Shown: piece by piece, positions 1 through 10,082 of the stretch
Layout of the letters: each line of letters opens with the position of its first letter
Position numbering within the stretch: position 1 is the stretch's first letter
Source of the DNA: a virus
Taxonomy: Duplodnaviria > Heunggongvirae > Uroviricota > Caudoviricetes
Virus record (IMG/VR): IMGVR_UViG_2541047688_000002
DNA: 10,082 nt
Strand: one strand, 5' to 3'
Notes under the pieces: model-generated
The model's database searches: none
Told to the model about the DNA's origin: nothing
What the model saw: only the letters and a program-made list of their open reading frames with translations
Program-made: the position numbers and the translations under genes

Positions 1-905
1 GTCCACATGCCCGTGTTTTCACAGATCCACCGCCCGTTACTCTGGTCAAGCTCAGACTGATGGATCACACAGCCATGATGCTCACAAAGGTAGAAAACAC
101 TTTCTGGCTTATTCTTCTCCCACTTAAGACCGAAAGGCGAGGCATCATCGCCAAATTTCAGATACTGCTCCTCCCCACAGTGCGGACAGGGCACATAAAA
201 ACGCATGAAGTGTGCCGACTCGTTAGCGGCTTTTTCGATCTGGCAGGAGCCTTTGATTTTAGGCGTCGAGCCGCGAATGGATTTTGGCCATACAGAGCCC
301 TCAATACGTTTATCCCCCAGCAGGGTTGGCGAACCCTCTTTTTCAACATCCGGTTCGAACGAGGAAAGCTCGTCATAACAGACCACATCCACGGATTTTT
401 CACGGTAGTTTTTTGCTGCCGCACCACCCAGACACCAGAACCCCACACCGGAGGAAAAACGCTTCAGGGTGAGCGTATTATCGCGGTGTTTTCTTCCGAA
501 CCATGGAGCCAGCTCCAGCAATGCAGGAACATCCCTTATCGTTGGCTCAACATGAGATTTCATAAAATCTTCAGCAGCTGAGTCCGTGGGCTGAAAAAGA
601 AGGCTGTTGCGTGATTTATGCTCAATAAAATAAGCCTCCACTCCCAGCAACATCTTTGTATAACCAACACGGGCAGATTTAATCAGGTTAACCGTGCGAA
701 TCAGATCGTTGCCCATACAGTTCATGATGCCAACCTGAAACGGCAGTGTTTCCCATCGCCCCGGGGTATAAGACGACTCTTTAGGAAGGTAATAATGTTT
801 ATTGGCCCACTGAACTGTCGTCAGTGGAACAGGAATAATGAGAGATAAAAGCCCTGTAGCTATCGCACCGGCTGCATTAGCTGCCTTCTGCGCGTCTGAA
901 ATCAT
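1..905 (-). CDS. A: Terminase large subunit (lambda gpA-like), N-terminal ~301 codons; CDS continues past the window start
   Basis: Minus-strand frame reads continuously from ATG (revcomp of 903-905) to position 1: [13 protein letters not shown]...[27 protein letters not shown]...[35 protein letters not shown]. These match lambda gpA as recalled (e.g. [44 protein letters not shown]). The ATG lies 26 nt upstream of the Nu1 stop, the same overlap as in lambda. Absent from the ORF track because it runs off the window. Confidence 0.9.
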
Positions 906-1425
906 CGATCCACCCGCCCACGTTTTCACCGGCCTTAGCTGCAACATTGGAGGCTTTCGCGATTTCAGTTTTCACCACATCAAGGTGTGATGGTGAAATG
1001 TCCGGATATTTACGCTGTAATGTCAACGGCACACGCACAAGTATCCCCGAAATCTCCTGTGCCACACGTTGCAGAATGAAGGTAAACAGTTCAGTTTCCA
1101 GCACTACTCCGTCTTCACGGGCATTTTTCAGTTCCTGCGCATCTGCCTGCGCTTTTGTGAGCCGGTAGCGTTCATAGTCAATGGTGCCGGGTTGTAAATC
1201 TGACTCCGCTGCCGCACGCAAATCGTCCAGTTCTTTGCGGAGCTTTTCGTTTTCGATATCAGTTTCCCTCTGCGCATACCACTGAATTGCCATGGCAGTA
1301 TCAAATACAGATTCAATGCCCTTACTGCCTTTGGAGACGCAAGGGAGCCCCTGAGACTGCCAGCGTTCAATCGTCCGCGGGTCCACGTTGAAAATTTCGG
1401 CAAGCCTCTTTTTATTAACCTTCAT
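877..1425 (-). CDS. nu1: Terminase small subunit (lambda Nu1-like; nohD/nohB-type)
   Basis: ORF-track protein [29 protein letters not shown]...[29 protein letters not shown] closely parallels lambda Nu1 (MEVNKKQLADIFGASIRTIQNWQEQGMP...[28 protein letters not shown]). ATG at 1423-1425 (revcomp); sits between cos and gpA. Confidence 0.9.
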
Positions 1426-1625
1426 GAAAACAACCCATTATCAAATACAAGGCCCGACATGAAAACGCCAGAAAAAGGCATTTTCGGACACTTTCATGTC
1501 GGACCTTTACGGATGCAATATTAAAAAAAACAAAAAGTTATATTCGAGAAGTACCGACACGATTTTCCCTGAAAAATTTTCATAAATAGTGAAAAACCGC
1601 GAGGTCGCCGCCCCGTAACCTGTTG
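1426..1625 (-). other. cos DNA-packaging site: cosB (1426-1591), cosN 12-nt cohesive-end sequence (1592-1603), cosQ side (1604-1625)
   Basis: Revcomp of 1592-1603 is GGGCGGCGACCT, the lambda cohesive-end sequence. The adjacent minus-strand sequence GGGCGGCGACCTCGCGGTTTTTCACTATTTATGAAAATTTT matches the lambda left end as recalled. Revcomp of 1604-1612 is CAGGTTACG, as at the lambda right end. cosB holds inverted 11-bp repeats CCGACATGAAA (1454-1464) / TTTCATGTCGG (1493-1503) and an A-tract at 1524-1531, consistent with Nu1 R-sites and an IHF bend. Confidence 0.8.
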
Positions 1626-1761
1626 GATCGACGGAAAGGACCCGAAAACGAGAATAATTATCACTTACAGCAAGAATCGAATCTGATCTATTATGGTGCT
1701 TGCTATTATGTGCCGGCACAAGTGCGTCGTTTACCGTCATTTCACACAGAGGCATCATCAA

Positions 1762-2013
1762 ATGAAAATCAGAAATATTCTCGCTATCTCCCTTGCGACA
1801 TCATCCTTCAGTTGCCTGGCATTTAAATCCTCGCCCAATGTGCTACCAGGACCAACGAATCAACTAACTGCGGTAGAAAGTAAAATTATCGGACATTTTT
1901 ATGCCCCACACAGTACATTACCCGGAACAACCATCACAGGGACATGTGACGCCTCCCCCGTCCCGGGATGCACCTGTCCGTTTTGTACTATGCTGCGTAG
2001 CCAAAACCGATAA
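1762..2013 (+). CDS. Hypothetical small secreted protein (83 aa) with a Cys-rich C-terminus
   Basis: ATG at 1762 with AGAGG 10 nt upstream. N-terminus MKIRNILAISLATSSFSCLA looks like a signal peptide; C-terminus TGTCDASPVPGCTCPFC. Overlaps an alternative frame (1901-2074), so coding status is uncertain. Confidence 0.3.
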   Translation: MKIRNILAISLATSSFSCLAFKSSPNVLPGPTNQLTAVESKIIGHFYAPHSTLPGTTITGTCDASPVPGCTCPFCTMLRSQNR

Positions 2014-2074
2014 CATCCGCATTTACCTGGTATTCCATGATGAGTTCACGCAGCGACTGATAGAGGAAGGAAAG

Positions 2075-2254
2075 ATGGTTAGTAAAAGCAAGGCGCATTG
2101 CCGCCGCATGCTGCAGGCATTGCAACAGACGAGAGCAGGTATTTTTGACCAGTTGGAAAACTGCCAGCATACTTTGCCCGAGTATATCGCCATCTCATCG
2201 GAAACCAGTGCAACTCTTATTCATCGGGTTCCACCAGAGAAAAAGAAGAAATGA
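2075..2254 (+). CDS. Hypothetical 59-aa basic protein
   Basis: Strong SD GAGGAAGGAAAG immediately upstream of ATG 2075. Protein MVSKSKAHCRRMLQALQQTRAGIFDQLENCQHTLPEYIAISSETSATLIHRVPPEKKKK. Stop TGA overlaps the next ATG (ATGA at 2251-2254). Confidence 0.4.
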   Translation: MVSKSKAHCRRMLQALQQTRAGIFDQLENCQHTLPEYIAISSETSATLIHRVPPEKKKK

Positions 2255-2388
2255 ACAGTGAGGCGTTGTGTGGCATACAACGCCTTCTTCCATCATTCCT
2301 CGTCAGCCATGACAAAAATATAACCGCTGGCTCTTTCATTTTTCTCCTGCTTCCAGCCCCTCTCTACCTGGAAGCATCAAGGACGTGA
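2251..2388 (+). CDS. Hypothetical 45-aa hydrophobic peptide, translationally coupled to the upstream ORF
   Basis: ATG 2251-2253 overlaps the upstream stop (ATGA). Translation MNSEALCGIQRLLPSFLVSHDKNITAGSFIFLLLPAPLYLEASRT has a hydrophobic core. Below the ORF-track length cutoff. The 3' end overlaps the convergent lipoprotein gene by 12 nt. Confidence 0.3.
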   Translation: MNSEALCGIQRLLPSFLVSHDKNITAGSFIFLLLPAPLYLEASRT

Positions 2389-2703
2389 CGGCGTAAAGAT
2401 AAATTGTCTCTTCACTCCCTGACAGGGGCGATTCTTTTCAAATCGCCATTTCGCCATGGCCTTCACCACTTCATCACGAAACAAATTATGAGGCTCTGAG
2501 CGGAGAAAAACGATCCGTGTCACAGTCCCATCAGCACCAATATCGAACTTAACCTCAACCAGCCCCTTGATATAATTTGCTGCAGCATATTCCGGATATC
2601 GTGGATACACCGTCACTAATTGCCGGGGCTCATCAGCTTTTTGCTGCGAGCATCCCACTGCCAGGACAGATAACAGAAAAAGTAGTAAAAGGCGTCTTTT
2701 CAT
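2377..2703 (-). CDS. Prophage lipoprotein with a TonB C-terminal-domain fold (candidate TonB-CTD decoy); start at internal Met 19 of the track ORF
   Basis: ATG at 2701-2703 (revcomp) with AGGA 6 nt upstream. Signal peptide plus lipobox MKRRLLLLFLLSVLAVG|CSQQ (Ser at +2). Mature region YPRYPEYAAANYIKGLVEVKFDIGADGTVTRIVFLRSEPHNLFRDEVVKAMAKWRFE aligns with the E. coli TonB C-terminal domain as recalled ([54 protein letters not shown]). Confidence 0.75.
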   Translation of the reverse strand: MKRRLLLLFLLSVLAVGCSQQKADEPRQLVTVYPRYPEYAAANYIKGLVEVKFDIGADGTVTRIVFLRSEPHNLFRDEVVKAMAKWRFEKNRPCQGVKRQFIFTPSRP

Positions 2704-3183
2704 TTTTATTCCTACGGGTCTTATTCTGACAATATATCCTGTGTTCCAGACTGCCACATCACCACATCCTGTGCCATTATCTGACTCACATTACATACAT
2801 CGCATCGGGATACAGTAGTAGCACTTTCTGTAATACAGCTTCCTGTTTCTTCCACCATCGCACCGGGATAAACCCGCGAATCATTAACGCGGTAAAAACC
2901 CGGTGTGCATCGTTTTTAATTATTCCCGCACACTCACGCAGAAGGAATTCCCCGTCGGGCTACGGTCATGGTTAATGCGGGAATACGGCGACGATACAGC
3001 GCAGCTAAAAGGGTAATGGACGGATAGACCGGTTTATTTCATTCCACAGGATTCTGAGTGTCCCCAACTTCCTCCAATAGTCTGAGCCCACCTGTGTAGT
3101 TTTAATTTTCATCAATCCATTTAACTATCGTTTAATTGTTGTCACATAGGATTCTGCCGTTTTTAACAATGCAGGATAATAAG

Positions 3184-3477
3184 ATGAAAAAAATGTTGTT
3201 TTCTGCCGCTCTGGCAATGCTTATTACAGGATGTGCTCAACAGACGTTTACTGTTGGAAACAAACCTACAGCAGTAACACCAAAGGAAACCATCACCCAT
3301 CATTTCTTCGTTTCGGGAATTGGGCAGAAGAAAACTGTCGATGCAGCAAAAATTTGTGGTGGTGCAGAAAATGTTGTTAAAACAGAAACCCAGCAAACAT
3401 TCGTAAATGGATTGCTCGGTTTTATTACTTTAGGCATTTATACTCCGCTGGAAGCGCGTGTGTATTGCTCACAATAA
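3184..3477 (+). CDS. bor: Bor outer-membrane lipoprotein (serum-resistance lysogenic conversion protein)
   Basis: MKKMLFSAALAMLITGCAQQTFTVGNKPTAVTPKETITHHFFVSGIGQKKTVDAAKICGGAENVVKTETQQTFVNGLLGFITLGIYTPLEARVYCSQ is near-identical to lambda Bor as recalled. Lipobox LITGC; AGGA 7 nt upstream of ATG 3184. The track ORF begins further upstream at 3136. Confidence 0.9.
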   Translation: MKKMLFSAALAMLITGCAQQTFTVGNKPTAVTPKETITHHFFVSGIGQKKTVDAAKICGGAENVVKTETQQTFVNGLLGFITLGIYTPLEARVYCSQ

Positions 3478-3488
3478 TTGCATGAGTT

Positions 3489-3504
3489 GCCCATCGATAT
3501 GGGC
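3489..3504. other. Short palindrome GCCCATcgatATGGGC between the convergent bor and Rz 3' ends
   Basis: Perfect 6-bp stem with a 4-nt loop seen directly in the sequence; no adjacent T-tract, so terminator function is uncertain. Confidence 0.25.
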
Positions 3505-3508
3505 AGCT

Positions 3509-3970
3509 CTATCTGCACTGCTCATTAATATACTTCTGGGTTCCTTCCAGTTGTTTTTGCATAGTGATCAGCCTCTCTCTGAGGGTGAAATAATCCCGTT
3601 CAGCGGTGTCTGCCAGTCGGGGGGAGGCTGCATTATCCACGCCGGAGGCGGTGGTGGCTTCACGCACTGACTGACAGACTGCTTTGATGTGCAACCGACG
3701 ACGACCAGCGGCAACATCATCACGCAGAGCATCATTTTCAGCTTTCGCATCAGCTAACTCCTTCGTGTATTTTGCATCGAGCGCAGCAACATCACGCTGA
3801 CGCATCTGTATGTCAGTAATTGCCGCGTTCGCCAGCGTCAGTTCTCTGGCATTTTTGTCGCGCTGGGCTTTGTAGGTAATGGCGTTATCACGGTAATGAT
3901 TAACAGCCCATGACAGGCAGACGATGATGCAGATAACCAGAGCGGAGATAATCGCGGTTACTCTGTTCAT
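3509..3970 (-). CDS. Rz: Rz i-spanin (inner-membrane spanin subunit)
   Basis: [53 protein letters not shown]... matches lambda Rz as recalled. ATG (3968-3970 revcomp) overlaps the R stop as ATGA. The track ORF starts 4 codons earlier at a GTG. Confidence 0.9.
3568..3750 (-). CDS. Rz1: Rz1 o-spanin (outer-membrane lipoprotein) embedded in the +1 frame of Rz
   Basis: [60 protein letters not shown] has a lipobox VVGC and a proline-rich mature part; it matches lambda Rz1 as recalled and lies entirely inside Rz. Confidence 0.85.
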
Positions 3971-4464
3971 TGCTGACCCCACAAACAGATTTCACGCTCA
4001 ATCTCACGACGAGTCATGAGACCTTTCCATTGCTTACCGCCAGCATATGTCCAGCGACGTAGCTGATCACATGCGCCTTTGATATCGCCCTGGTTTATTT
4101 TGCGAAGAAGCGTCGATGTTCTGAAATTGCCAGCACCCACGTTGTAAACGAATGAGTAAAGAGCGCCGCGCATTGTTTCCGGTATATCGACTTTGATGTA
4201 CGGGTTAATTTGTCTGGCGACCGTGGCAAGGTCTTTATTCAGGAGGGCTTTGCATTCTGCTTTGGTATACGTTTTACCGAGCATGATGTCTTTTCCTGTA
4301 TGCCCGTGACATACAGTCCATACACCAACAATATCTTTGTATGGTATGTAGCTGACACCTTCCAGACCATCGTTACCACTTGGGCCAGTGATTAACACTG
4401 ATGCTATAGCAATTGCTCCGCCACCAATAGCAGCAGCAACGGCTTTTCGTAATGATGGAGGCAT
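3967..4464 (-). CDS. R: SAR endolysin (phage 21 R21-type lysozyme with an N-terminal signal-arrest-release domain)
   Basis: [44 protein letters not shown]... has a Gly/Ala-rich weakly hydrophobic N-terminal SAR segment followed by a lysozyme domain, matching phage 21 R as recalled. The start overlaps the S stop (TAATG). Confidence 0.9.
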
Positions 4465-4679
4465 TATTCACCTCTCGCAGCCTTGCGCTTATCTTCTTTA
4501 ATCTTGAAATAAAGGTTTGTCAGGTACGTCAGCAGGCCAAATACCAGGCTACCCAGCACACCTATTGCCGCCCACTGTGAGGGCGTGACTTTATCGAGCA
4601 ACTGTAAAAACCAGTACCCGGCACTACCTGCTGAGGTACCATAGGCGACACCCGTTGTTAACTTATCCATGGATTTCAT
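4464..4679 (-). CDS. S: Pinholin (phage 21 S21-type holin, class II, dual start)
   Basis: [71 protein letters not shown] has two transmembrane segments and a dual-start motif (Met1 and Met4), matching S21 as recalled. Confidence 0.9.
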
Positions 4680-4808
4680 AACCCCACCTCGCAGACAAAG
4701 CGGGTGTAAATTAAGGGGATACTACGTATCGCAATAAAGGCAGAAACGTAACAGATTCGGAGTCAGTGAATAACTCAGGTATTGGGTTATCAGCTAATAT
4801 CGAGACTC

Positions 4809-4842
4809 AAAAAATGGAAAAACCCGCTCGACGGCGGGTTTA
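4809..4842 (-). terminator. Putative intrinsic terminator (hairpin CCCGC-tcgacg-GCGGG flanked by an A-run and a T-run), stronger for the minus strand
   Basis: Stem 4823-4827 / 4834-4838. On the minus strand the stem is followed by UUUCCAUUUUUUG (revcomp of 4805-4820); on the plus strand only TTTA follows. Lies upstream of S on the late strand. Confidence 0.45.
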
Positions 4843-5267
4843 AGCTGTGTGACGAAGTAACCACTCTTAACAGCATAACCAATTTTTTACGTACGTAAAC
4901 TACTAAATGATATTTGTGAGAATGCCACCGAGTGTTCAAAACACCACCACAAATGCATAAGAAAACTTCAACAAATAACCAGTTAATAATTTCCGATGTT
5001 ATTTTTAGTTTGTTTAAATTAAGCTAAAGAATTATAGAGCACTTATAAATAAGTGCCATTAATATAAATTAGCTAATAGATTTATTTTTGTTCAGACAAG
5101 AGCCATGAATAGGATTAGATAGAAAAGGTTCAGATAAAAATAGAGATCTACTTCACAAATTAAATGAGAAACTAAAACTTACATCTTGAAATAATCACAT
5201 TGATTAGATGAATATTTATCGCGCAGTGACATCATTTTTTAATAAAAGTTCAAAAAAAGGGCGTACA

Positions 5268-6350
5268 ATGAAAAAATTAACAGTGGCAATTTCTGCTGTA
5301 GCTGCATCAGTACTGATGGCGATGTCTGCTCAGGCAGCTGAAATTTATAATAAAGACAGTAACAAGCTGGATCTATACGGGAAAGTTAATGCCAAGCACT
5401 ACTTCTCCTCTAATGATGCAGATGATGGTGATACTACTTATGCCCGTCTTGGCTTCAAAGGTGAAACCCAAATCAACGATCAACTGACTGGTTTCGGTCA
5501 GTGGGAATATGAATTCAAAGGCAACCGTGCTGAATCTCAAGGTTCTTCCAAAGACAAAACCCGTCTTGCATTTGCAGGCCTGAAATTTGGTGATTACGGC
5601 TCAATCGATTACGGCCGTAACTACGGTGTAGCATACGACATCGGTGCGTGGACTGACGTTCTGCCAGAATTCGGTGGTGATACCTGGACCCAAACAGATG
5701 TGTTCATGACTGGTCGCACTACTGGTGTTGCAACTTATCGTAACAACGACTTCTTTGGTCTGGTCGATGGCCTGAACTTTGCTGCTCAGTATCAGGGTAA
5801 AAATGACCGCACTGACGTAACTGAAGCCAATGGTGATGGTTTCGGTTTCTCCACTACTTATGAGTATGAAGGATTCGGCGTGGGTGCAACCTATGCTAAA
5901 TCAGATCGCACTGACGGTCAGGTCGCCTATGGTAAGAGCAAATTCAATGCCTCCGGCAAAAATGCGGAAGTATGGGCTGCAGGCCTGAAATATGATGCGA
6001 ACAATATCTATCTGGCTACCACATATTCTGAAACTCAGAATATGACCGTTTTTGGTAATAACCATATTGCAAACAAAGCACAAAACTTTGAAGCAGTAGC
6101 ACAATATCAGTTTGACTTCGGTCTGCGTCCATCTGTTGCTTACCTTCAGTCAAAAGGTAAAGACCTTGGTGTTCATGGTGACCGAGACTTAGTCAAGTAT
6201 GTCGATGTCGGTGCTACTTACTACTTTAATAAAAACATGTCCACTTTTGTTGATTACAAAATCAACTTAATTGACGATAGTAAGTTTACCAAAACAGCTG
6301 GTATTGATACCGACGACATCGTCGCTGTAGGTCTGGTTTATCAGTTCTAA
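5268..6350 (+). CDS. nmpC: General diffusion porin of the OmpC/OmpF/PhoE family, prophage-encoded (NmpC / Lc-type)
   Basis: Signal peptide [23 protein letters not shown]|AEIYNK; porin hallmarks ([17 protein letters not shown]..., C-terminal VAVGLVYQF ending in Phe). Position between Q and S matches nmpC in DLP12 and lc in PA-2. The track ORF begins at 5208, but 5268 gives a proper signal peptide and an AAGGG SD. Confidence 0.9.
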
Positions 6351-6361
6351 TCTGACTTACG

Positions 6362-6401
6362 AAAAAGATATGTTGCGGGAGGCTTTGCCTCCGCAACATA
6401 T
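6362..6401 (-). terminator. Putative tR'-like intrinsic terminator for the late (minus-strand) transcript
   Basis: Imperfect 14-15-bp inverted repeat ATATGTTGCGGGAGG / CCTCCGCAACATAT (6368-6401). On the minus strand it is followed by CUUUUUCG (revcomp of 6360-6367). It ends about 180 nt downstream of the Q stop, comparable to the lambda pR'-tR' distance. Confidence 0.5.
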
Positions 6402-6538
6402 AAGTGGAGCCCTCAAGCCACTTCCTTTAGAAGCACTACCTTGCTTCTTACTATATAAACCTTCTGTTATATATTACCCTTTATTTTGGGGGCGTTTCCA
6501 CGCCCCATTTTTAATAACTTTTAGTAAACAATTGCATA
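6402..6538 (-). promoter_or_regulatory. Predicted late promoter pR' / qut region downstream of Q (exact -35/-10 not resolved)
   Basis: Positional inference from lambdoid late-operon architecture (Q, then pR'/qut, then tR'). AT-rich with several TATAAT-like hexamers on the minus strand (TATTAA, TAATAT, TATAGT); no confident -35/-10 pairing could be made by eye. Confidence 0.35.
6489..6512 (+). terminator. Putative intrinsic terminator for the porin transcript
   Basis: GGGGCGT-ttcc-ACGCCCC, a 7-bp GC-rich stem (6489-6506), followed by ATTTTT on the plus strand; about 140 nt downstream of the porin stop. Confidence 0.5.
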
Positions 6539-6922
6539 TCAATTAGAATTATTAGCAACGATATCCATATCTAACCGGATATCTAATGCCATTAACATCC
6601 CTTCAATTATGCCCTCAGCCTTCTGTAACCTTTTCCCGATATAACCATCCGAGCAGCAATGCTTACTTGCCAGTGACATGAATGTCATACCACATACATA
6701 ATAATCTACTAATAAATCGTGTAAATCGCTGTTGTTCTTTTTCAGACGGGCCATGCACCCGCAAATGATCATCGCGTCATCGTCACAACATTGCGGGCGA
6801 GATTTTACTTTTGAAGGAATTAATCCCTTAAAACCGGCGGCAATGGACGACCAGGTCACATCTTCATGATTATTAGCCGCCCACGCCCCCCAACGCTCAA
6901 GAACCATCTGAATATCACGCAT
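6539..6922 (-). CDS. Q: Late-gene antiterminator Q (QuuD / phage 21-82 type)
   Basis: [62 protein letters not shown]... matches DLP12 QuuD as recalled, with a Cys-rich zinc-binding region. ATG at 6920-6922 (revcomp); the track start 5 codons upstream is a TTG. Confidence 0.85.
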
Positions 6923-7007
6923 CAACTTACTCCACAAAAATCAGACCAGAACGCCAATTACAAGCAAAAATCAACAAAACAGTATTAGTTGATTGTTATC
7001 TCTGACT

Positions 7008-7148
7008 TCATACTCCTGTTCCTGTCAGGGTTTTGGCGTAATTCTTCAGTATTCGGTAATCGGTCAAAACAGAACCGAGGAAACGATATAAGCGCAGACG
7101 CCCCCAGCGGTGGCGAAGAAGTTCTGCCATATTAAACTCAAACATCAT
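7008..7148 (-). CDS. ylcG: YlcG-like small protein (46 aa) of the lambdoid nin region
   Basis: Translation MMFEFNMAELLRHRWGRLRLYRFLGSVLTDYRILKNYAKTLTGTGV matches DLP12 YlcG as recalled; its start overlaps the rusA stop. Below the ORF-track length cutoff. Confidence 0.6.
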   Translation of the reverse strand: MMFEFNMAELLRHRWGRLRLYRFLGSVLTDYRILKNYAKTLTGTGV

Positions 7149-7196
7149 TCATTCCCCATTTCGGTGATGGTCAGTTCCAGCCTCCCACCTTTGGTA
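7145..7196 (-). pseudogene. rusA: 3' remnant of rusA (Holliday-junction resolvase), last 16 codons only, truncated by IS911
   Basis: Minus-strand translation immediately left of the IS911 end is TKGGRLELTITEMGNE-stop, matching the RusA C-terminus as recalled. The rest of the gene is not found on the other side of the IS. Confidence 0.6.
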
Positions 7197-7232
7197 TGAA
7201 GTGGTTTACTGAATTTGGCCACCTGAACAGAG
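7197..7232 (+). repeat. IS911 left terminal inverted repeat (IRL)
   Basis: Begins TGAAGTGG; pairs with the right end at 8411-8446. Confidence 0.8.
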
Positions 7233-7268
7233 GTGATATGCTCACCTCAGAACAACACAGGTGCCATA

Positions 7269-8446
<1,178 letters not shown>

Positions 8447-8663
8447 CAACGCCGTTAAGCACATAGCTAACGCAAAACAACAGGATGTAATACATCCAGT
8501 AATGAGGAAGGATTTCTGGACTATGCAGGTTTATCCATTCTTTTACGCTTACCGGCATAACAATAATCAATATGATCAGGATGATTAGCATATGAATCAA
8601 CTGTTTAAGTGTCATTCCTTGCAGGAAAAAATGCATTAGTTCCTGCCACCATGAGTTGTTCAT
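8447..8663 (-). pseudogene. 5' portion (about 72 codons) of a small membrane-protein gene, apparently truncated by the IS911 right end
   Basis: MNNSWWQELMHFFLQGMTLKQLIHMLIILIILIIVMPVSVKEWINLHSPEILPHYWMYYILLFCVSYVLNGVVKW has two hydrophobic segments. The track ORF (8292-8663) continues into IS911 only by chance. Weak RBS. Confidence 0.3.
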
Positions 8664-8806
8664 CGGCGTTTCTCTTTTGCTCTCTGTAGGGGTGAATAGA
8701 GTTTATCCGATTTCTCGTTGTAGGGGTACACGAGAACCACCGAGCCTGATGTGGTTAAAAGACAGGCACAATCTTTACTACCGCAATCCACTATTTAAGG
8801 TGATAT

Positions 8807-8893
8807 ATGGAAGAAGAATTTGAAGAGTTCGAAGAGCATCCTCAAGATGTGATGGAACAATACCAGGACTATCCGTATGACTACGACTATTGA
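8807..8893 (+). CDS. Hypothetical 28-aa highly acidic, aromatic-rich peptide
   Basis: Strong SD AAGGTG 5 nt upstream of ATG 8807. Translation MEEEFEEFEEHPQDVMEQYQDYPYDYDY. Overlaps the start of the next ORF by 17 nt. Below the ORF-track cutoff. Confidence 0.35.
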   Translation: MEEEFEEFEEHPQDVMEQYQDYPYDYDY

Positions 8894-9077
8894 TACAAAT
8901 CAATGGTGTGGACAATTCAAACGATGCAATGGATGCAAGCTGCAATCGGAATGCATGGTTAAGCCTGAAGAAATGTTTCCTGTAATGGAAGATGGGAAAT
9001 ATGTCGATAAATGGGCAATACGAACGACGGCAATGATTGCCAGAGAACTTGGTAAACAGAACAACAAAGCTGCCTGA
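8877..9077 (+). CDS. Hypothetical 66-aa Cys-rich protein (possible zinc-ribbon)
   Basis: MTTTIDTNQWCGQFKRCNGCKLQSECMVKPEEMFPVMEDGKYVDKWAIRTTAMIARELGKQNNKAA contains C-x5-C-x2-C-x5-C. The start lies inside the upstream acidic-peptide ORF, suggesting coupling. Confidence 0.45.
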   Translation: MTTTIDTNQWCGQFKRCNGCKLQSECMVKPEEMFPVMEDGKYVDKWAIRTTAMIARELGKQNNKAA

Positions 9078-9213
9078 TAGTGGCCTTTATTTTTGGCATA
9101 AATAACAGAATAAACACTGCACTGTGTATTCATTCCAACGAGTGAATACACGGAGCAATGTCGCTCGTAACTAAACAGGAGCCGACTTGTTCTGATTATT
9201 GGAAATCTTCTTT

Positions 9214-9239
9214 GCCCTCCAGTGTGAGGGCGATTTTTT
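9214..9239 (+). terminator. Intrinsic terminator / attenuator hairpin
   Basis: GCCCTC-cagtgt-GAGGGC (9214-9231) followed by GA then TTTTTT (9234-9239). Confidence 0.5.
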
Positions 9240-9259
9240 ATCTATGAGGATATGAATAG

Positions 9260-9628
9260 ATGTCAAACATCAAAAAATACATCATTGATTACGACTGGAA
9301 AGCATCAATAGAAATTGAAATTGACCATGACGTAATGACAGAGGAAAAACTTCACCAGATTAATAATTTCTGGTCAGACTCTGAATACCGACTCAATAAA
9401 CACGGCTCTGTATTAAATGCTGTATTAATCATGCTGGCGCAACATGCTCTGCTTATAGCAATTTCAAGCGACTTAAATGCATATGGTGTTGTGTGTGAGT
9501 TCGACTGGAATGATGGAAATGGTCAGGAAGGATGGCCTCCAATGGATGGTAGTGAAGGAATAAGAATTACCGATATCGATACATCAGGAATATTTGATTC
9601 AGATGATATGACTATCAAGGCCGCCTGA
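9260..9628 (+). CDS. Hypothetical 122-aa strongly acidic protein
   Basis: GAGGA 9 nt upstream of ATG 9260. About 22 Asp/Glu against about 8 Lys/Arg, with a C-terminal region rich in D/G/S (DWNDGNGQEGWPPMDGSEGIRITDIDTSGIFDSDDM). No family recognised from memory. Confidence 0.45.
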   Translation: MSNIKKYIIDYDWKASIEIEIDHDVMTEEKLHQINNFWSDSEYRLNKHGSVLNAVLIMLAQHALLIAISSDLNAYGVVCEFDWNDGNGQEGWPPMDGSEGIRITDIDTSGIFDSDDMTIKAA

Positions 9629-9662
9629 GCGCGGCGTTACCGCATACCAATTACGCTTCACT

Positions 9663-10082
<420 letters not shown>

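What the first reader, a model, noticed from the sequence alone, without database searches (positions are those of the whole stretch)
2377..2703. Prophage moron encoding a lipid-anchored TonB C-terminal domain: candidate TonB decoy for superinfection exclusion or colicin immunity
The 108-aa product has a lipoprotein signal peptide (LAVG|C, Ser at +2, so probably outer-membrane sorted). Its mature part is essentially only a TonB C-terminal domain: the YP motif and the blocks VKFD..DG and N.F..EV..AM..WR.E line up with E. coli TonB residues ~160-225. It lacks TonB's N-terminal membrane anchor and proline-rich spacer, so it cannot transduce energy but could still bind TonB boxes of outer-membrane transporters (FhuA, BtuB, FepA, Cir and others). 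Soluble periplasmic TonB C-terminal fragments are known to inhibit TonB-dependent transport and to protect against phi80/T1-type phages and group B colicins. A prophage-encoded tethered version next to cos, beside bor and the porin moron, fits a superinfection-exclusion or envelope-remodelling function. It is mechanistically distinct from the known FhuA-blocking lipoproteins Cor and Llp. I cannot tell from memory whether this family has been characterised.
Basis: partly seen in the sequence, partly recalled or inferred. Interest (0 to 1): 0.8.

Follow-up and report, generated by a model that had tools for sequence, protein, structure and literature searches.

The report
Phage-borne lipid-anchored TonB end domain
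A phage 21-type prophage of E. coli encodes a small outer-membrane lipoprotein made of little more than the tip of the energy-coupling protein TonB; the gene is real, conserved and very common, already labelled 'TonB family protein', and probably jams TonB-dependent entry routes, but nobody appears to have tested that.

Summary
Window 2377-2703 (minus strand) encodes a 108-aa protein with a lipoprotein signal peptide (LAVG|C18, Ser +2) and one TonB C-terminal domain. Evidence: Pfam E=7e-13; 41% gapless identity to E. coli TonB 150-230; AlphaFold model 1.0 A from TonB in the BtuB:TonB complex.

It is not new as an object. It is 100% identical to phage 21 CPT_21_73 ('TonB C-terminal domain protein'). 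It occurs in 1617 of 5426 complete E. coli genomes as 'TonB family protein'.

It is under purifying selection (dN/dS 0.12). Every phage-borne copy examined has a lipobox. In 80 of 80 E. coli-type viral contigs, and in most of 25 diverse others, it sits after the lysis genes and before the terminase, in late-operon orientation.

A secreted (non-lipidated) relative in Serratia sits upstream of, and co-oriented with, a colicin immunity gene in three different genomic settings.

No functional study turned up in ten full-text searches.

Best explanation (0.45): an energy-uncoupled decoy that binds Ton boxes and blocks TonB-dependent import. The decoy idea is plausible and testable but unproven. Expression in lysogens is unshown, and constant blocking would cost iron uptake. 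Interest is moderate to high. I rate it a new variant of a known kind.

The parts
2377..2703 (-). CDS of the 108-aa TonB_C-only lipoprotein (stop codon 2377-2379).
   Evidence: Annotated WP_000830178.1 'TonB family protein' in CFT073. 100% identical to phage 21 CPT_21_73.
2650..2703 (-). Signal peptide and lipobox (residues 1-18: MKRRLLLLFLLSVLAVG|C). Cys18 is the predicted lipidation site and Ser19 the +2 residue.
   Evidence: Read from the sequence. Cys18 is invariant in A1 and A4. All phage-borne relatives have a lipobox. Lipidation itself was not tested.
2629..2649 (-). Short tether (residues 19-25, SQQKADE) between the lipid anchor and the folded domain.
   Evidence: pLDDT is below 50 for residues 16-21 and rises to about 95 from residue 31.
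2392..2628 (-). TonB C-terminal domain (residues 26-104), including the YP motif (Y36-P37) and the C-terminal edge strand 94-103.
   Evidence: Pfam TonB_C covers residues 33-99. BLASTP to TonB 150-230. AlphaFold pLDDT 86. Foldseek hits 2gsk_B (rmsd 1.0 A) and 2grx_C (0.9 A).
2710..2713 (-). Shine-Dalgarno AGGA, ending 6 nt before the ATG.
   Evidence: A ribosome-binding site is also annotated at the equivalent position in phage 21.
2719..2734 (-). Motif ATTGTCAGAATAAGAC. It is conserved between the two E. coli alleles inside otherwise diverged upstream DNA and reads as an extended -10 (TGnCAGAAT; TGnTAGAAT in allele B). Candidate own promoter, unproven.
   Evidence: The standard sigma-70 scan finds nothing on this strand.
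2835..3006 (-). Conserved lambdoid backbone element upstream of the gene. It is not part of the gene's own unit and marks the left edge of the variable slot.
   Evidence: Found in 437 phage records, including lambda/DE3 and 933W, which lack the TonB_C gene. It is more conserved between alleles than the CDS.
3509..3970 (-). Rz (i-spanin) with embedded Rz1 (o-spanin, 3568-3750). This is the end of the lysis cassette (S 4464-4679, R 3967-4464), upstream and co-oriented.
3184..3477 (+). iss/bor lipoprotein gene, on the opposite strand, between Rz and the TonB_C gene.
   Evidence: A bor-like sequence is present in only 13 of 36 allele-A viral contigs.
877..1425 (-). Terminase small subunit (Nu1, phage 21 type). 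It is the next late gene downstream, with cos in between (about window 1613).

Best explanation
[quoted passage not shown] An 8-residue tether holds a complete TonB C-terminal domain there.

The domain keeps the fold, the YP motif, the aromatic core and the free edge strand that TonB uses to capture the 'Ton box' strand of outer-membrane transporters and of group-B bacteriocins. It has no membrane anchor, no spacer and no link to ExbB/ExbD, so it can bind but cannot pull.

I propose it acts as a competitive, energy-uncoupled decoy. It would occupy Ton boxes at the periplasmic face of the outer membrane. That would lower TonB-dependent entry of colicins, microcins and phages, and unavoidably some siderophore and B12 uptake.

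It is transcribed at least with the late operon, because it lies between Rz and cos in late orientation. It may also have a weak promoter of its own.

Shown here: the gene, the lipobox, the domain, the fold, purifying selection, the genomic slot and the prevalence. Inferred: outer-membrane location, Ton-box binding, the inhibitory effect, and the timing of expression.
For: - Domain and fold. The model matches TonB as seen bound to BtuB and FhuA (rmsd 0.9-1.0 A, target-normalised TM-score 0.91-0.92).
- TonB's aromatic residues Y163, F180, F202, W213, Y215 and F230 are all kept, as Y36, F53, F75, W86, F88 and F103.
- It is not a remnant. dN/dS is 0.12 between two alleles whose synonymous sites are near saturation. 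The core evolves about 4 times more slowly at non-synonymous sites than the N-arm and C-terminal strand (dN 0.083 against 0.30-0.31). In TonB those two regions contact the Ton box (my knowledge of the 2GSK and 2GRX papers).
- The lipobox Cys is invariant, and every phage-borne relative is a lipoprotein.
- Precedent: periplasmic TonB fragments inhibit TonB-dependent transport, and TonB is scarce relative to its transporters.
- Independent context: Serratia relatives with a Sec signal lie directly upstream of, and co-oriented with, a colicin E1-type immunity gene that converges on a pore-forming colicin. This holds in three different flanks: chromosome, plasmid-like contig and conjugative plasmid. 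That colicin carries a Ton-box-like DSMTVTG near its N-terminus.
- Prevalence: 1617 of 5426 complete E. coli genomes, and 1612 of them hold at least 80% of the gene.
Against: - No binding, phenotype or expression data exist, and I found no paper on it.
- The gene is common in ExPEC strains (CFT073, UTI89, Nissle 1917). As far as I know these depend on TonB-dependent iron uptake, so strong constitutive inhibition in lysogens would be costly.
- No convincing sigma-70 promoter is present. Late-operon orientation suggests expression mainly during lytic growth, where the benefit of a decoy is less obvious.
- TonB residues implicated in transporter contact (R158, Q160, R166) are replaced here by T31, Y33 and Y39.
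- The Serratia colicin's N-terminal region is homologous to the TolA-binding segment of colicin A. It may therefore be Tol-dependent, which weakens that line of support. The association is also a single cassette lineage.
- PADLOC has no model for the protein.
- Whether an N-terminal tether of about 8 residues allows the bound orientation was not modelled.
Confidence: 0.45

Rival explanations
1. It interferes with the TonB system by binding the host's own TonB C-terminal domain or the ExbD periplasmic domain. This would form dead heterodimers held at the outer membrane, rather than occupying Ton boxes. TonB is far scarcer than its transporters, so this would need much less protein.
For: TonB is limiting relative to its transporters (PMC9841981). 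The Postle-lab preprint raises, and sets out to test, whether the inhibition by periplasmic TonB fragments acts on the ExbD-TonB interaction rather than on the transporters. TonB CTD fragments crystallise as dimers (1u07, 1qxx and 1ihr appear among the hits). The protein is 41% identical to the host domain.
Against: No direct evidence. The AlphaFold model matches the monomeric, transporter-bound form best (2gsk_B and 2grx_C), not the intertwined dimer (1qxx, rmsd 18 A). The predicted phenotype is the same as for the main explanation, so sequence analysis cannot separate the two.
Confidence: 0.12
2. It is a late-lytic envelope protein with no role in exclusion. For example, it might bind peptidoglycan or an outer-membrane partner, tuning envelope integrity, spanin action or progeny release.
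For: The gene is always co-oriented and directly after the lysis cassette. This holds in 80 of 80 E. coli-type viral contigs. In 25 diverse representative loci, the three nearest upstream ORFs gave 19 endolysin-family matches from three unrelated families (GH19 10, phage lysozyme 5, GH108 4), plus diverse holins and spanins. PHROG 1267, to which it belongs (E=5e-43), is labelled 'Rz-like spanin'. TonB's C-terminal domain has been reported to bind peptidoglycan (my recollection, not checked here).
Against: The window already has a complete Rz/Rz1 pair. As far as I know, S, R, Rz and Rz1 suffice for phage 21 lysis. The same slot holds unrelated cargo (bor/iss, Ivy, DNA pol III theta, DUF2560) and many related phages lack the gene, as expected of an accessory hot-spot. 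An intergenic gap of 100-500 nt always precedes the gene. Relatives also occur outside phages, on chromosomes and plasmids.
Confidence: 0.15
3. It is a binding module re-used for a positive function. It might dock a specific ligand or transporter to help the lysogen, as the TonB homologue FusB binds its ferredoxin substrate. It might also contribute to serum or host survival alongside Iss.
For: FusB's C-terminal domain is among the closest structural matches, and it binds a substrate directly (7zc8 and 9hi3). The gene lies next to iss and a porin gene in a prophage that also carries sitABCD.
Against: Without an energy-coupling part it cannot drive import. No partner gene travels with it in phages. 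The idea is purely speculative.
Confidence: 0.08
4. It is an inert leftover of a captured tonB 3' end.
For: Old annotations call it 'partial' or 'truncated tonB-like'.
Against: dN/dS is 0.12 with saturated synonymous sites. A lipoprotein signal peptide was added and is conserved. 1612 of the 1617 E. coli genomes that carry it hold at least 80% of the gene. The family spans Escherichia, Klebsiella, Rahnella, Serratia, Erwinia, Enterobacter and Raoultella.
Confidence: 0.03

Closest known systems
E. coli TonB C-terminal domain (residues ~150-239; PDB 1U07, 1XX3, 2GSK, 2GRX)
   Same: 41% identity with no gaps over 81 residues. Same alpha/beta fold, YP motif, aromatic core and C-terminal edge strand.
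   Different: No N-terminal transmembrane anchor, no proline-rich spacer and no coupling to ExbB/ExbD. It carries a lipoprotein signal instead. It ends at the equivalent of TonB residue 235. R158, Q160 and R166 are replaced.
Engineered periplasmic TonB fragments (Howard, Herrmann, Stratilo and Braun 2001)
   Same: A TonB C-terminal part exported without its anchor. Such constructs inhibit TonB-dependent transport (as cited).
   Different: Those fragments are laboratory constructs, soluble, 118-207 residues long and over-expressed. This protein is natural, about 90 residues when mature, lipid-tethered to the outer membrane, and of unknown expression level. According to my memory of that paper, not checked here, the shortest fragments were less effective.
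Cor (phi80, N15, HK022, mEp167) and Llp (T5) receptor-blocking lipoproteins
   Same: Small phage-encoded outer-membrane lipoproteins, proposed or shown to block entry through a TonB-dependent transporter (the bioRxiv Llp paper listed; my knowledge for Cor).
   Different: No sequence relationship: Pfam at E<=1 finds only TonB_C. Cor and Llp target FhuA itself and exclude the phage's own kind. This protein would act on the energy-coupling step and on many transporters. Phage 21's J tip is lambda-J-like, so self-exclusion is unlikely.
Serratia colicin-cassette TonB_C proteins (P0185, P0187; WP_165366317.1)
   Same: Same family (about 30% identity; TonB_C only; 119 aa). They are accessory genes on mobile DNA.
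   Different: They have a Sec-type signal with no lipobox, so they are predicted to be soluble in the periplasm. They are linked to an immunity gene and a colicin, not to a phage lysis cassette. They are also uncharacterised.
Bor/Iss, the neighbouring lambdoid accessory lipoprotein
   Same: An outer-membrane lipoprotein gene in the same Rz-to-cos slot.
   Different: Unrelated sequence, opposite strand, and a known serum-resistance role. Bor/iss is absent from most TonB_C-carrying contigs.

Membership tests
TonB_C domain family (Pfam PF03544 / TIGR01352) | HMM score above the curated cut-off | tested here: met
   PF03544 scores 49.2 bits against 24.6. TIGR01352 scores 47.4 against 27.1.
TonB_C domain family (Pfam PF03544 / TIGR01352) | alpha-beta-beta-alpha-beta fold with the conserved YP motif | tested here: met
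   AlphaFold pLDDT 86.2, elements H38-42, E47-55, E61-70, H76-83, E94-103. Foldseek gives 1u07, 2gsk_B and 2grx_C at rmsd 0.9-1.3 A. Y36-P37 align to Y163-P164.
TonB energy transducer (NCBIfam PRK10819 equivalogs) | Full-length match above the equivalog cut-off | tested here: not met
   Best score is 69.2 bits against a cut-off of 315. Only the last ~85 positions of the profile match.
TonB energy transducer (NCBIfam PRK10819 equivalogs) | N-terminal transmembrane anchor that couples to ExbB/ExbD, and a proline-rich spacer | tested here: not met
   The protein has 108 aa. Residues 1-18 are a lipoprotein signal peptide, followed at once by the C-terminal domain.
Bacterial lipoproteins (lipobox, signal peptidase II substrates) | Positive n-region, hydrophobic core, lipobox ending in Cys, and the Cys conserved | tested here: met
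   MKRR / LLLLFLLSVLAV / A-V-G-C18. The Cys is invariant in A1 and A4 and in all distinct phage-borne proteins.
Bacterial lipoproteins (lipobox, signal peptidase II substrates) | Actual acylation and outer-membrane sorting | not testable with these tools
   Ser at +2 predicts Lol-dependent outer-membrane sorting under the E. coli +2 rule (established knowledge). Globomycin and fractionation experiments are needed.
Cor/Llp-type superinfection-exclusion lipoproteins | Sequence homology to Cor or Llp | tested here: not met
   Pfam at E<=1 gives only TonB_C. None of the six PHROG hits at E<=1 carries a Cor, Llp or superinfection-exclusion label.
Cor/Llp-type superinfection-exclusion lipoproteins | Blocks infection through a defined receptor when expressed | not testable with these tools
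   Needs plating assays.
Spanins (PHROG 1267 label 'Rz-like spanin') | Membership of the PHROG | tested here: met
   E=5e-43 over the full length.
Spanins (PHROG 1267 label 'Rz-like spanin') | o-spanin anatomy: a short proline-rich mature lipoprotein paired with or embedded in an i-spanin gene | tested here: not met
   The mature part is a globular TonB_C domain. A genuine Rz (3509-3970) and Rz1 (3568-3750) pair is already present. The label is most likely an annotation error.
Moron (independent accessory unit in a phage genome) | Present or absent among otherwise related phages | tested here: met
   Only 15 phage records hold the protein, while 437 hold the adjacent backbone element. Two alleles combine with different terminase types.
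Moron (independent accessory unit in a phage genome) | Own promoter and terminator | tested here: inconclusive
   The consensus scan gives no hit on this strand. An extended -10-like motif is conserved between alleles, and promoter-like sites occur in 11 of 14 loci with a defined start (about 4 expected). A 9-bp hairpin at 2261-2285 lacks an adjacent T-run.

The most novel reading that the evidence does not exclude
Temperate phages of Enterobacterales carry a natural dominant-negative TonB domain tethered under the outer membrane. A Serratia bacteriocin cassette carries a soluble form. Both would act as a general lock on the TonB-dependent gateway. This would be an import-level immunity against bacteriocins and phages that works on the energy-coupling step rather than on any single receptor. 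In the phage 21 lineage it travels with sitABCD, a TonB-independent iron/manganese importer, which could offset the cost.
Probability: 0.35. Interest if true: 0.8.

Novelty: new variant of a known kind. Interest (0 to 1): 0.6.

Why it matters
If the decoy idea holds, about 30% of complete E. coli genomes carry a switch that can dampen every TonB-dependent route at once. These include model ExPEC and probiotic strains (CFT073, UTI89, Nissle 1917, ATCC 25922) and O157:H7.

That would bear on several practical questions:
- phage-therapy host range, since many therapeutic phages use TonB-dependent receptors;
- sensitivity to colicins and microcins in the gut;
- uptake of siderophore-conjugated ('Trojan horse') antibiotics;
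- iron acquisition during infection.

It would also add a new principle to superinfection exclusion: mimicry of the host's energy transducer. It would give a natural starting point for TonB inhibitors.

The test is simple. It needs one small gene, standard phages and colicins, and a classical phage (21) that already carries the gene.

Tried and rejected
- A first AlphaFold run on a 7-sequence alignment gave pLDDT 58.9 and was discarded. A 27-sequence alignment gave 86.2.
- The search for related loci with the broad alignment A3 failed because no stretch was conserved enough.
- The single genome-contig scan returned only 5 loci, too few for statistics.
- PADLOC gave no hit. Rfam gave no hit in the window. 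BFVD had no viral structure with this fold at E<=0.001.
- Ten full-text searches found no paper on this protein. Howard et al. 2001 is not held, so its content is cited second-hand.
- The spanin reading (PHROG label) was rejected because Rz and Rz1 are present.
- I first took the highly conserved 170 bp upstream (2835-3006) for a regulatory part of the gene or a structured RNA (fold z=-2.1). I rejected this because the element is a lambdoid backbone sequence, also found in lambda and 933W, which lack the gene.
- I first read the Serratia colicin as a clean TonB-dependent (group B) colicin because of DSMTVTG. I partly withdrew this because residues 56-107 are homologous to colicin A's TolA-binding segment, and the motif sits where colicin A has its TolB box.
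- Co-occurrence with sitABCD: all 7 phage records with allele A carry sit, but about 19 sit-positive lambdoid records lack the gene and allele-B phages lack sit. The link is confounded by shared ancestry.
- Self-exclusion was rejected as unlikely because phage 21's J tip is lambda-J-like. Its receptor was not determined.
- GC content does not distinguish the gene from its flanks.
Full report
**1. Observation**

The ORF is real and lies on the minus strand, from ATG at 2703 to the stop at 2377-2379, encoding 108 aa. An AGGA ribosome-binding site sits at 2710-2713. The N-terminus (MKRR, a 12-residue hydrophobic run, then A-V-G-C18-S) is a textbook lipoprotein signal with a non-Asp +2 residue.

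The remainder is a TonB C-terminal domain:
- Pfam TonB_C E=7.3e-13, 49.2 bits against a 24.6 cut-off.
- TIGR01352 47.4 bits against 27.1, with the best NCBIfam hits being the C-terminal ~85 positions of the enterobacterial TonB equivalogs.
- BLASTP against E. coli TonB gives 41% identity with no gaps, residues 23-103 against 150-230, E=7e-20.
- PDB TonB chains score E~1e-14.

**2. What the locus is**

Window 1-7196 is 99.9% identical to a prophage of CFT073, Nissle 1917 and many other strains. In CFT073 this prophage is a phage 21-like element whose far end abuts a partial, duplicated isocitrate dehydrogenase (icd) fragment and which carries sitABCD.

The protein is 100% identical to CPT_21_73 of classical phage 21, annotated 'TonB C-terminal domain protein'. 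The gene is found in 1617 of 5426 complete E. coli genomes, and in every hit listed it is annotated 'TonB family protein'. About 1200 genomes carry this allele, and about 390 carry a second allele (72% aa identity) typical of O157:H7 and Stx1 phages.

So the object is well known to annotators. Older records call it a 'partial tonB-like membrane protein'.

**3. Structure**

With a 27-sequence family alignment, AlphaFold gives mean pLDDT 86.2, with 79 residues at or above 90. The topology is helix 38-42, strands 47-55 and 61-70, helix 76-83, strand 94-103.

Foldseek places the model on E. coli TonB-CTD. The match to TonB as seen bound to BtuB (2gsk_B) has rmsd 1.0 A over 79 columns and a target-normalised TM-score of 0.92. 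The match to TonB bound to FhuA (2grx_C) has rmsd 0.9 A.

TonB's aromatic core (Y163, F180, F202, W213, Y215, F230) is conserved, and the C-terminal edge strand is present. Residues R158, Q160 and R166 of TonB are replaced by T31, Y33 and Y39.

The lipid-bearing Cys is only 8 residues from the equivalent of TonB P153. The domain would therefore be held within a few nanometres of the outer membrane's inner face. This last point is inference and was not modelled.

**4. Is it functional?**

- Between the two E. coli alleles dN/dS is 0.12, with dS about 1.5.
- The core (residues 39-90) has dN 0.083. The N-arm (19-38) and the C-terminal strand region (91-108) have dN 0.30-0.31.
- Change is therefore concentrated in the two segments that contact the Ton box in TonB. 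This is consistent with a tuned binding surface, but it is not evidence of positive selection.
- The lipobox Cys is invariant.
- An exhaustive profile search finds many 100-130 aa TonB_C-only relatives with signal peptides.

**5. Genomic slot**

In 80 of 80 IMG/VR contigs with the E. coli alleles, the gene lies between Rz (upstream, same strand) and the small terminase gene. Allele A goes with the phage 21 Nu1 type. Allele B goes mostly with HNH plus an HK97-type terminase.

A second scan found 48 more diverged phage copies, all with lipoboxes. In 25 representative loci, the three nearest upstream co-oriented ORFs gave:
- 19 matches to three unrelated endolysin families (GH19 10, phage lysozyme 5, GH108 4);
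- 13 matches to five holin families;
- 8 matches to spanin-like families.

Downstream lie diverse small terminases, HNH endonucleases and other cargo such as Ivy and DNA polymerase III theta. A Klebsiella phage and a Rahnella prophage show the same order.

This is the classical accessory-gene slot of lambdoid phages, and it is in late-operon orientation.

Homology between the two alleles extends 300 bp upstream. However, the distal 170 bp (2835-3006) is a backbone element shared with 437 phage records, including lambda and 933W, which lack the gene. The gene's own upstream region is therefore only about 130 bp.

That region holds one motif conserved between alleles, ATTGTyAGAATAAGAC, which reads as an extended -10. 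The standard promoter scan finds nothing on this strand. Whether the gene is expressed in lysogens is therefore open.

**6. Relatives outside phages**

Family members also occur as orphan genes:
- on chromosomes of Erwinia, Enterobacter, Raoultella and Serratia;
- on Klebsiella plasmids.

The most informative case is in Serratia. A 119-aa TonB_C-only protein with a Sec-type signal, and so predicted to be soluble in the periplasm, lies 68 bp upstream of a colicin E1-type immunity gene and is co-oriented with it. That immunity gene converges on a pore-forming colicin. The three-gene set appears with three different left flanks: chromosome, plasmid-like contig and a conjugative plasmid. This looks like the Howard et al. 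experiment occurring in nature, placed where an extra immunity function would sit.

Two caveats apply:
- The colicin has a Ton-box-like DSMTVTG near its N-terminus, but residues 56-107 are homologous to colicin A's TolA-binding segment. The motif occupies the place of colicin A's TolB box. Its import route is therefore uncertain.
- A close relative of the TonB_C gene sits at the same chromosomal site without the colicin.

This line is supportive but not strong.

**7. Mechanism**

The protein would be a TonB tip that can dock on Ton boxes by strand addition but cannot transmit force, placed exactly where Ton boxes emerge.

Periplasmic TonB fragments inhibit the TonB system, and TonB is scarce relative to its transporters.

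I add three qualifications:
- The target could be the Ton boxes of incoming bacteriocins rather than those of host transporters. It could also be TonB or ExbD themselves. These variants predict similar phenotypes but different costs.
- The gene is common in ExPEC, which as far as I know rely on TonB-dependent iron uptake. Strong constitutive inhibition in lysogens is therefore unlikely. Expression is probably late, low or conditional.
- Phage 21's tail tip is lambda-J-like. The protein is thus unlikely to exclude its own phage and differs in logic from Cor and Llp.

The phage 21 lineage also carries sitABCD, which could compensate for lost iron uptake. That co-occurrence is confounded by ancestry.

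**8. Known versus new**

The domain, the family name and the presence in phage 21 are known. The PHROG label 'Rz-like spanin' is almost certainly wrong.

I found no functional study in ten full-text searches, no PADLOC model and no similar fold in the viral structure library. Subscription-only literature was not searchable, so prior work cannot be excluded.

I rate it a new variant of a known kind: a phage outer-membrane lipoprotein acting on entry, but by mimicking the host's energy transducer. Interest is 0.6. The hypothesis is sharp, cheap to test and concerns a third of E. coli genomes, but nothing functional is shown yet.

Noticed in passing
window 7197-8446 and 9663-10082: An IS3-family element (ISEc52-like; ORFs 7233-7571 and 7598-8416) interrupts the prophage early-right region. 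A second copy in inverted orientation starts at 9663 and runs off the window (420-nt arms, 100% complementary, 1216 nt apart). Most genomes match only window 1-7196.
   Followed up: partly
window 8447-9662: The 1.2-kb segment caught between the two inverted IS copies holds ORFs of 66 aa (8877-9077) and 122 aa (9260-9628) of unknown function. It was not examined.
   Followed up: no
window 2835-3006: A non-coding element of about 170 bp, more conserved between diverged prophages than the adjacent CDS. It is present in 437 phage records, including lambda/DE3 and 933W. It contains an 11-bp inverted repeat (TATTCCCGCA...TGCGGGAATA). Fold z-score is -2.1 and there is no Rfam hit. Function unknown.
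   Followed up: partly
PHROG phrog_1267 (protein at window 2377-2703): The PHROG that contains this protein is labelled 'Rz-like spanin' in the lysis category. The members are TonB_C lipoproteins lying next to true spanins. The label looks like an annotation error that will propagate.
   Followed up: yes
L010 6783-8510, L011 6783-8447, L104 5783-7498: The Serratia pore-forming colicin looks like a chimera. It has a colicin A-like TolA-binding segment (residues 56-107) and a Ton-box-like DSMTVTG exactly where colicin A has its TolB box. Its pore domain is closest to colicin Ib and pyocin S5, and it pairs with an E1-type immunity protein. It may be bacteriocin 28b or a relative (from memory).
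   Followed up: partly
L017 21967-24000 (phage 21); L018 16708-20151 (CFT073): Phage 21 and the CFT073 prophage carry sitABCD (a TonB-independent Fe/Mn importer) after the tail-fibre genes. All 7 phage records with this TonB_C allele have sit. In CFT073 sitA is annotated as frameshifted.
   Followed up: partly
window 5268-6350: A prophage-borne porin gene, annotated 'ompC' by PGAP (nmpC-like position), lies on the opposite strand between Q (6539-6922) and the holin gene.
   Followed up: no
P0041, P0071, P0085, P0120, P0185, P0187, P0188 (family members): Several non-E. coli relatives share a C-terminal tail ending G-x-[VL]-P-[FYS]-R(K) (for example GNGVPFR and LLPYR). The E. coli phage proteins lack it. 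Meaning unknown.
   Followed up: no
L013/L014 versus L010 (Serratia chromosome, after the Mpo1-like gene): The same chromosomal site holds a TonB_C gene followed by either the colicin and immunity pair or a SIR2-domain gene. This suggests a variable defence or competition island.
   Followed up: no
window 2261-2285: A 9-bp-stem hairpin (AGGCGTTGT...ACAACGCCT) lies about 90 bp downstream of the TonB_C stop codon. It has no adjacent T-run on either strand and was not called as a terminator by the scan.
   Followed up: no
L022 5811-6317 and 7938-8294: In a Serratia marcescens chromosome, a divergent TonB_C lipoprotein (27% identity) lies 1.6 kb from a ferritin gene. This is possibly coincidental.
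   Followed up: no
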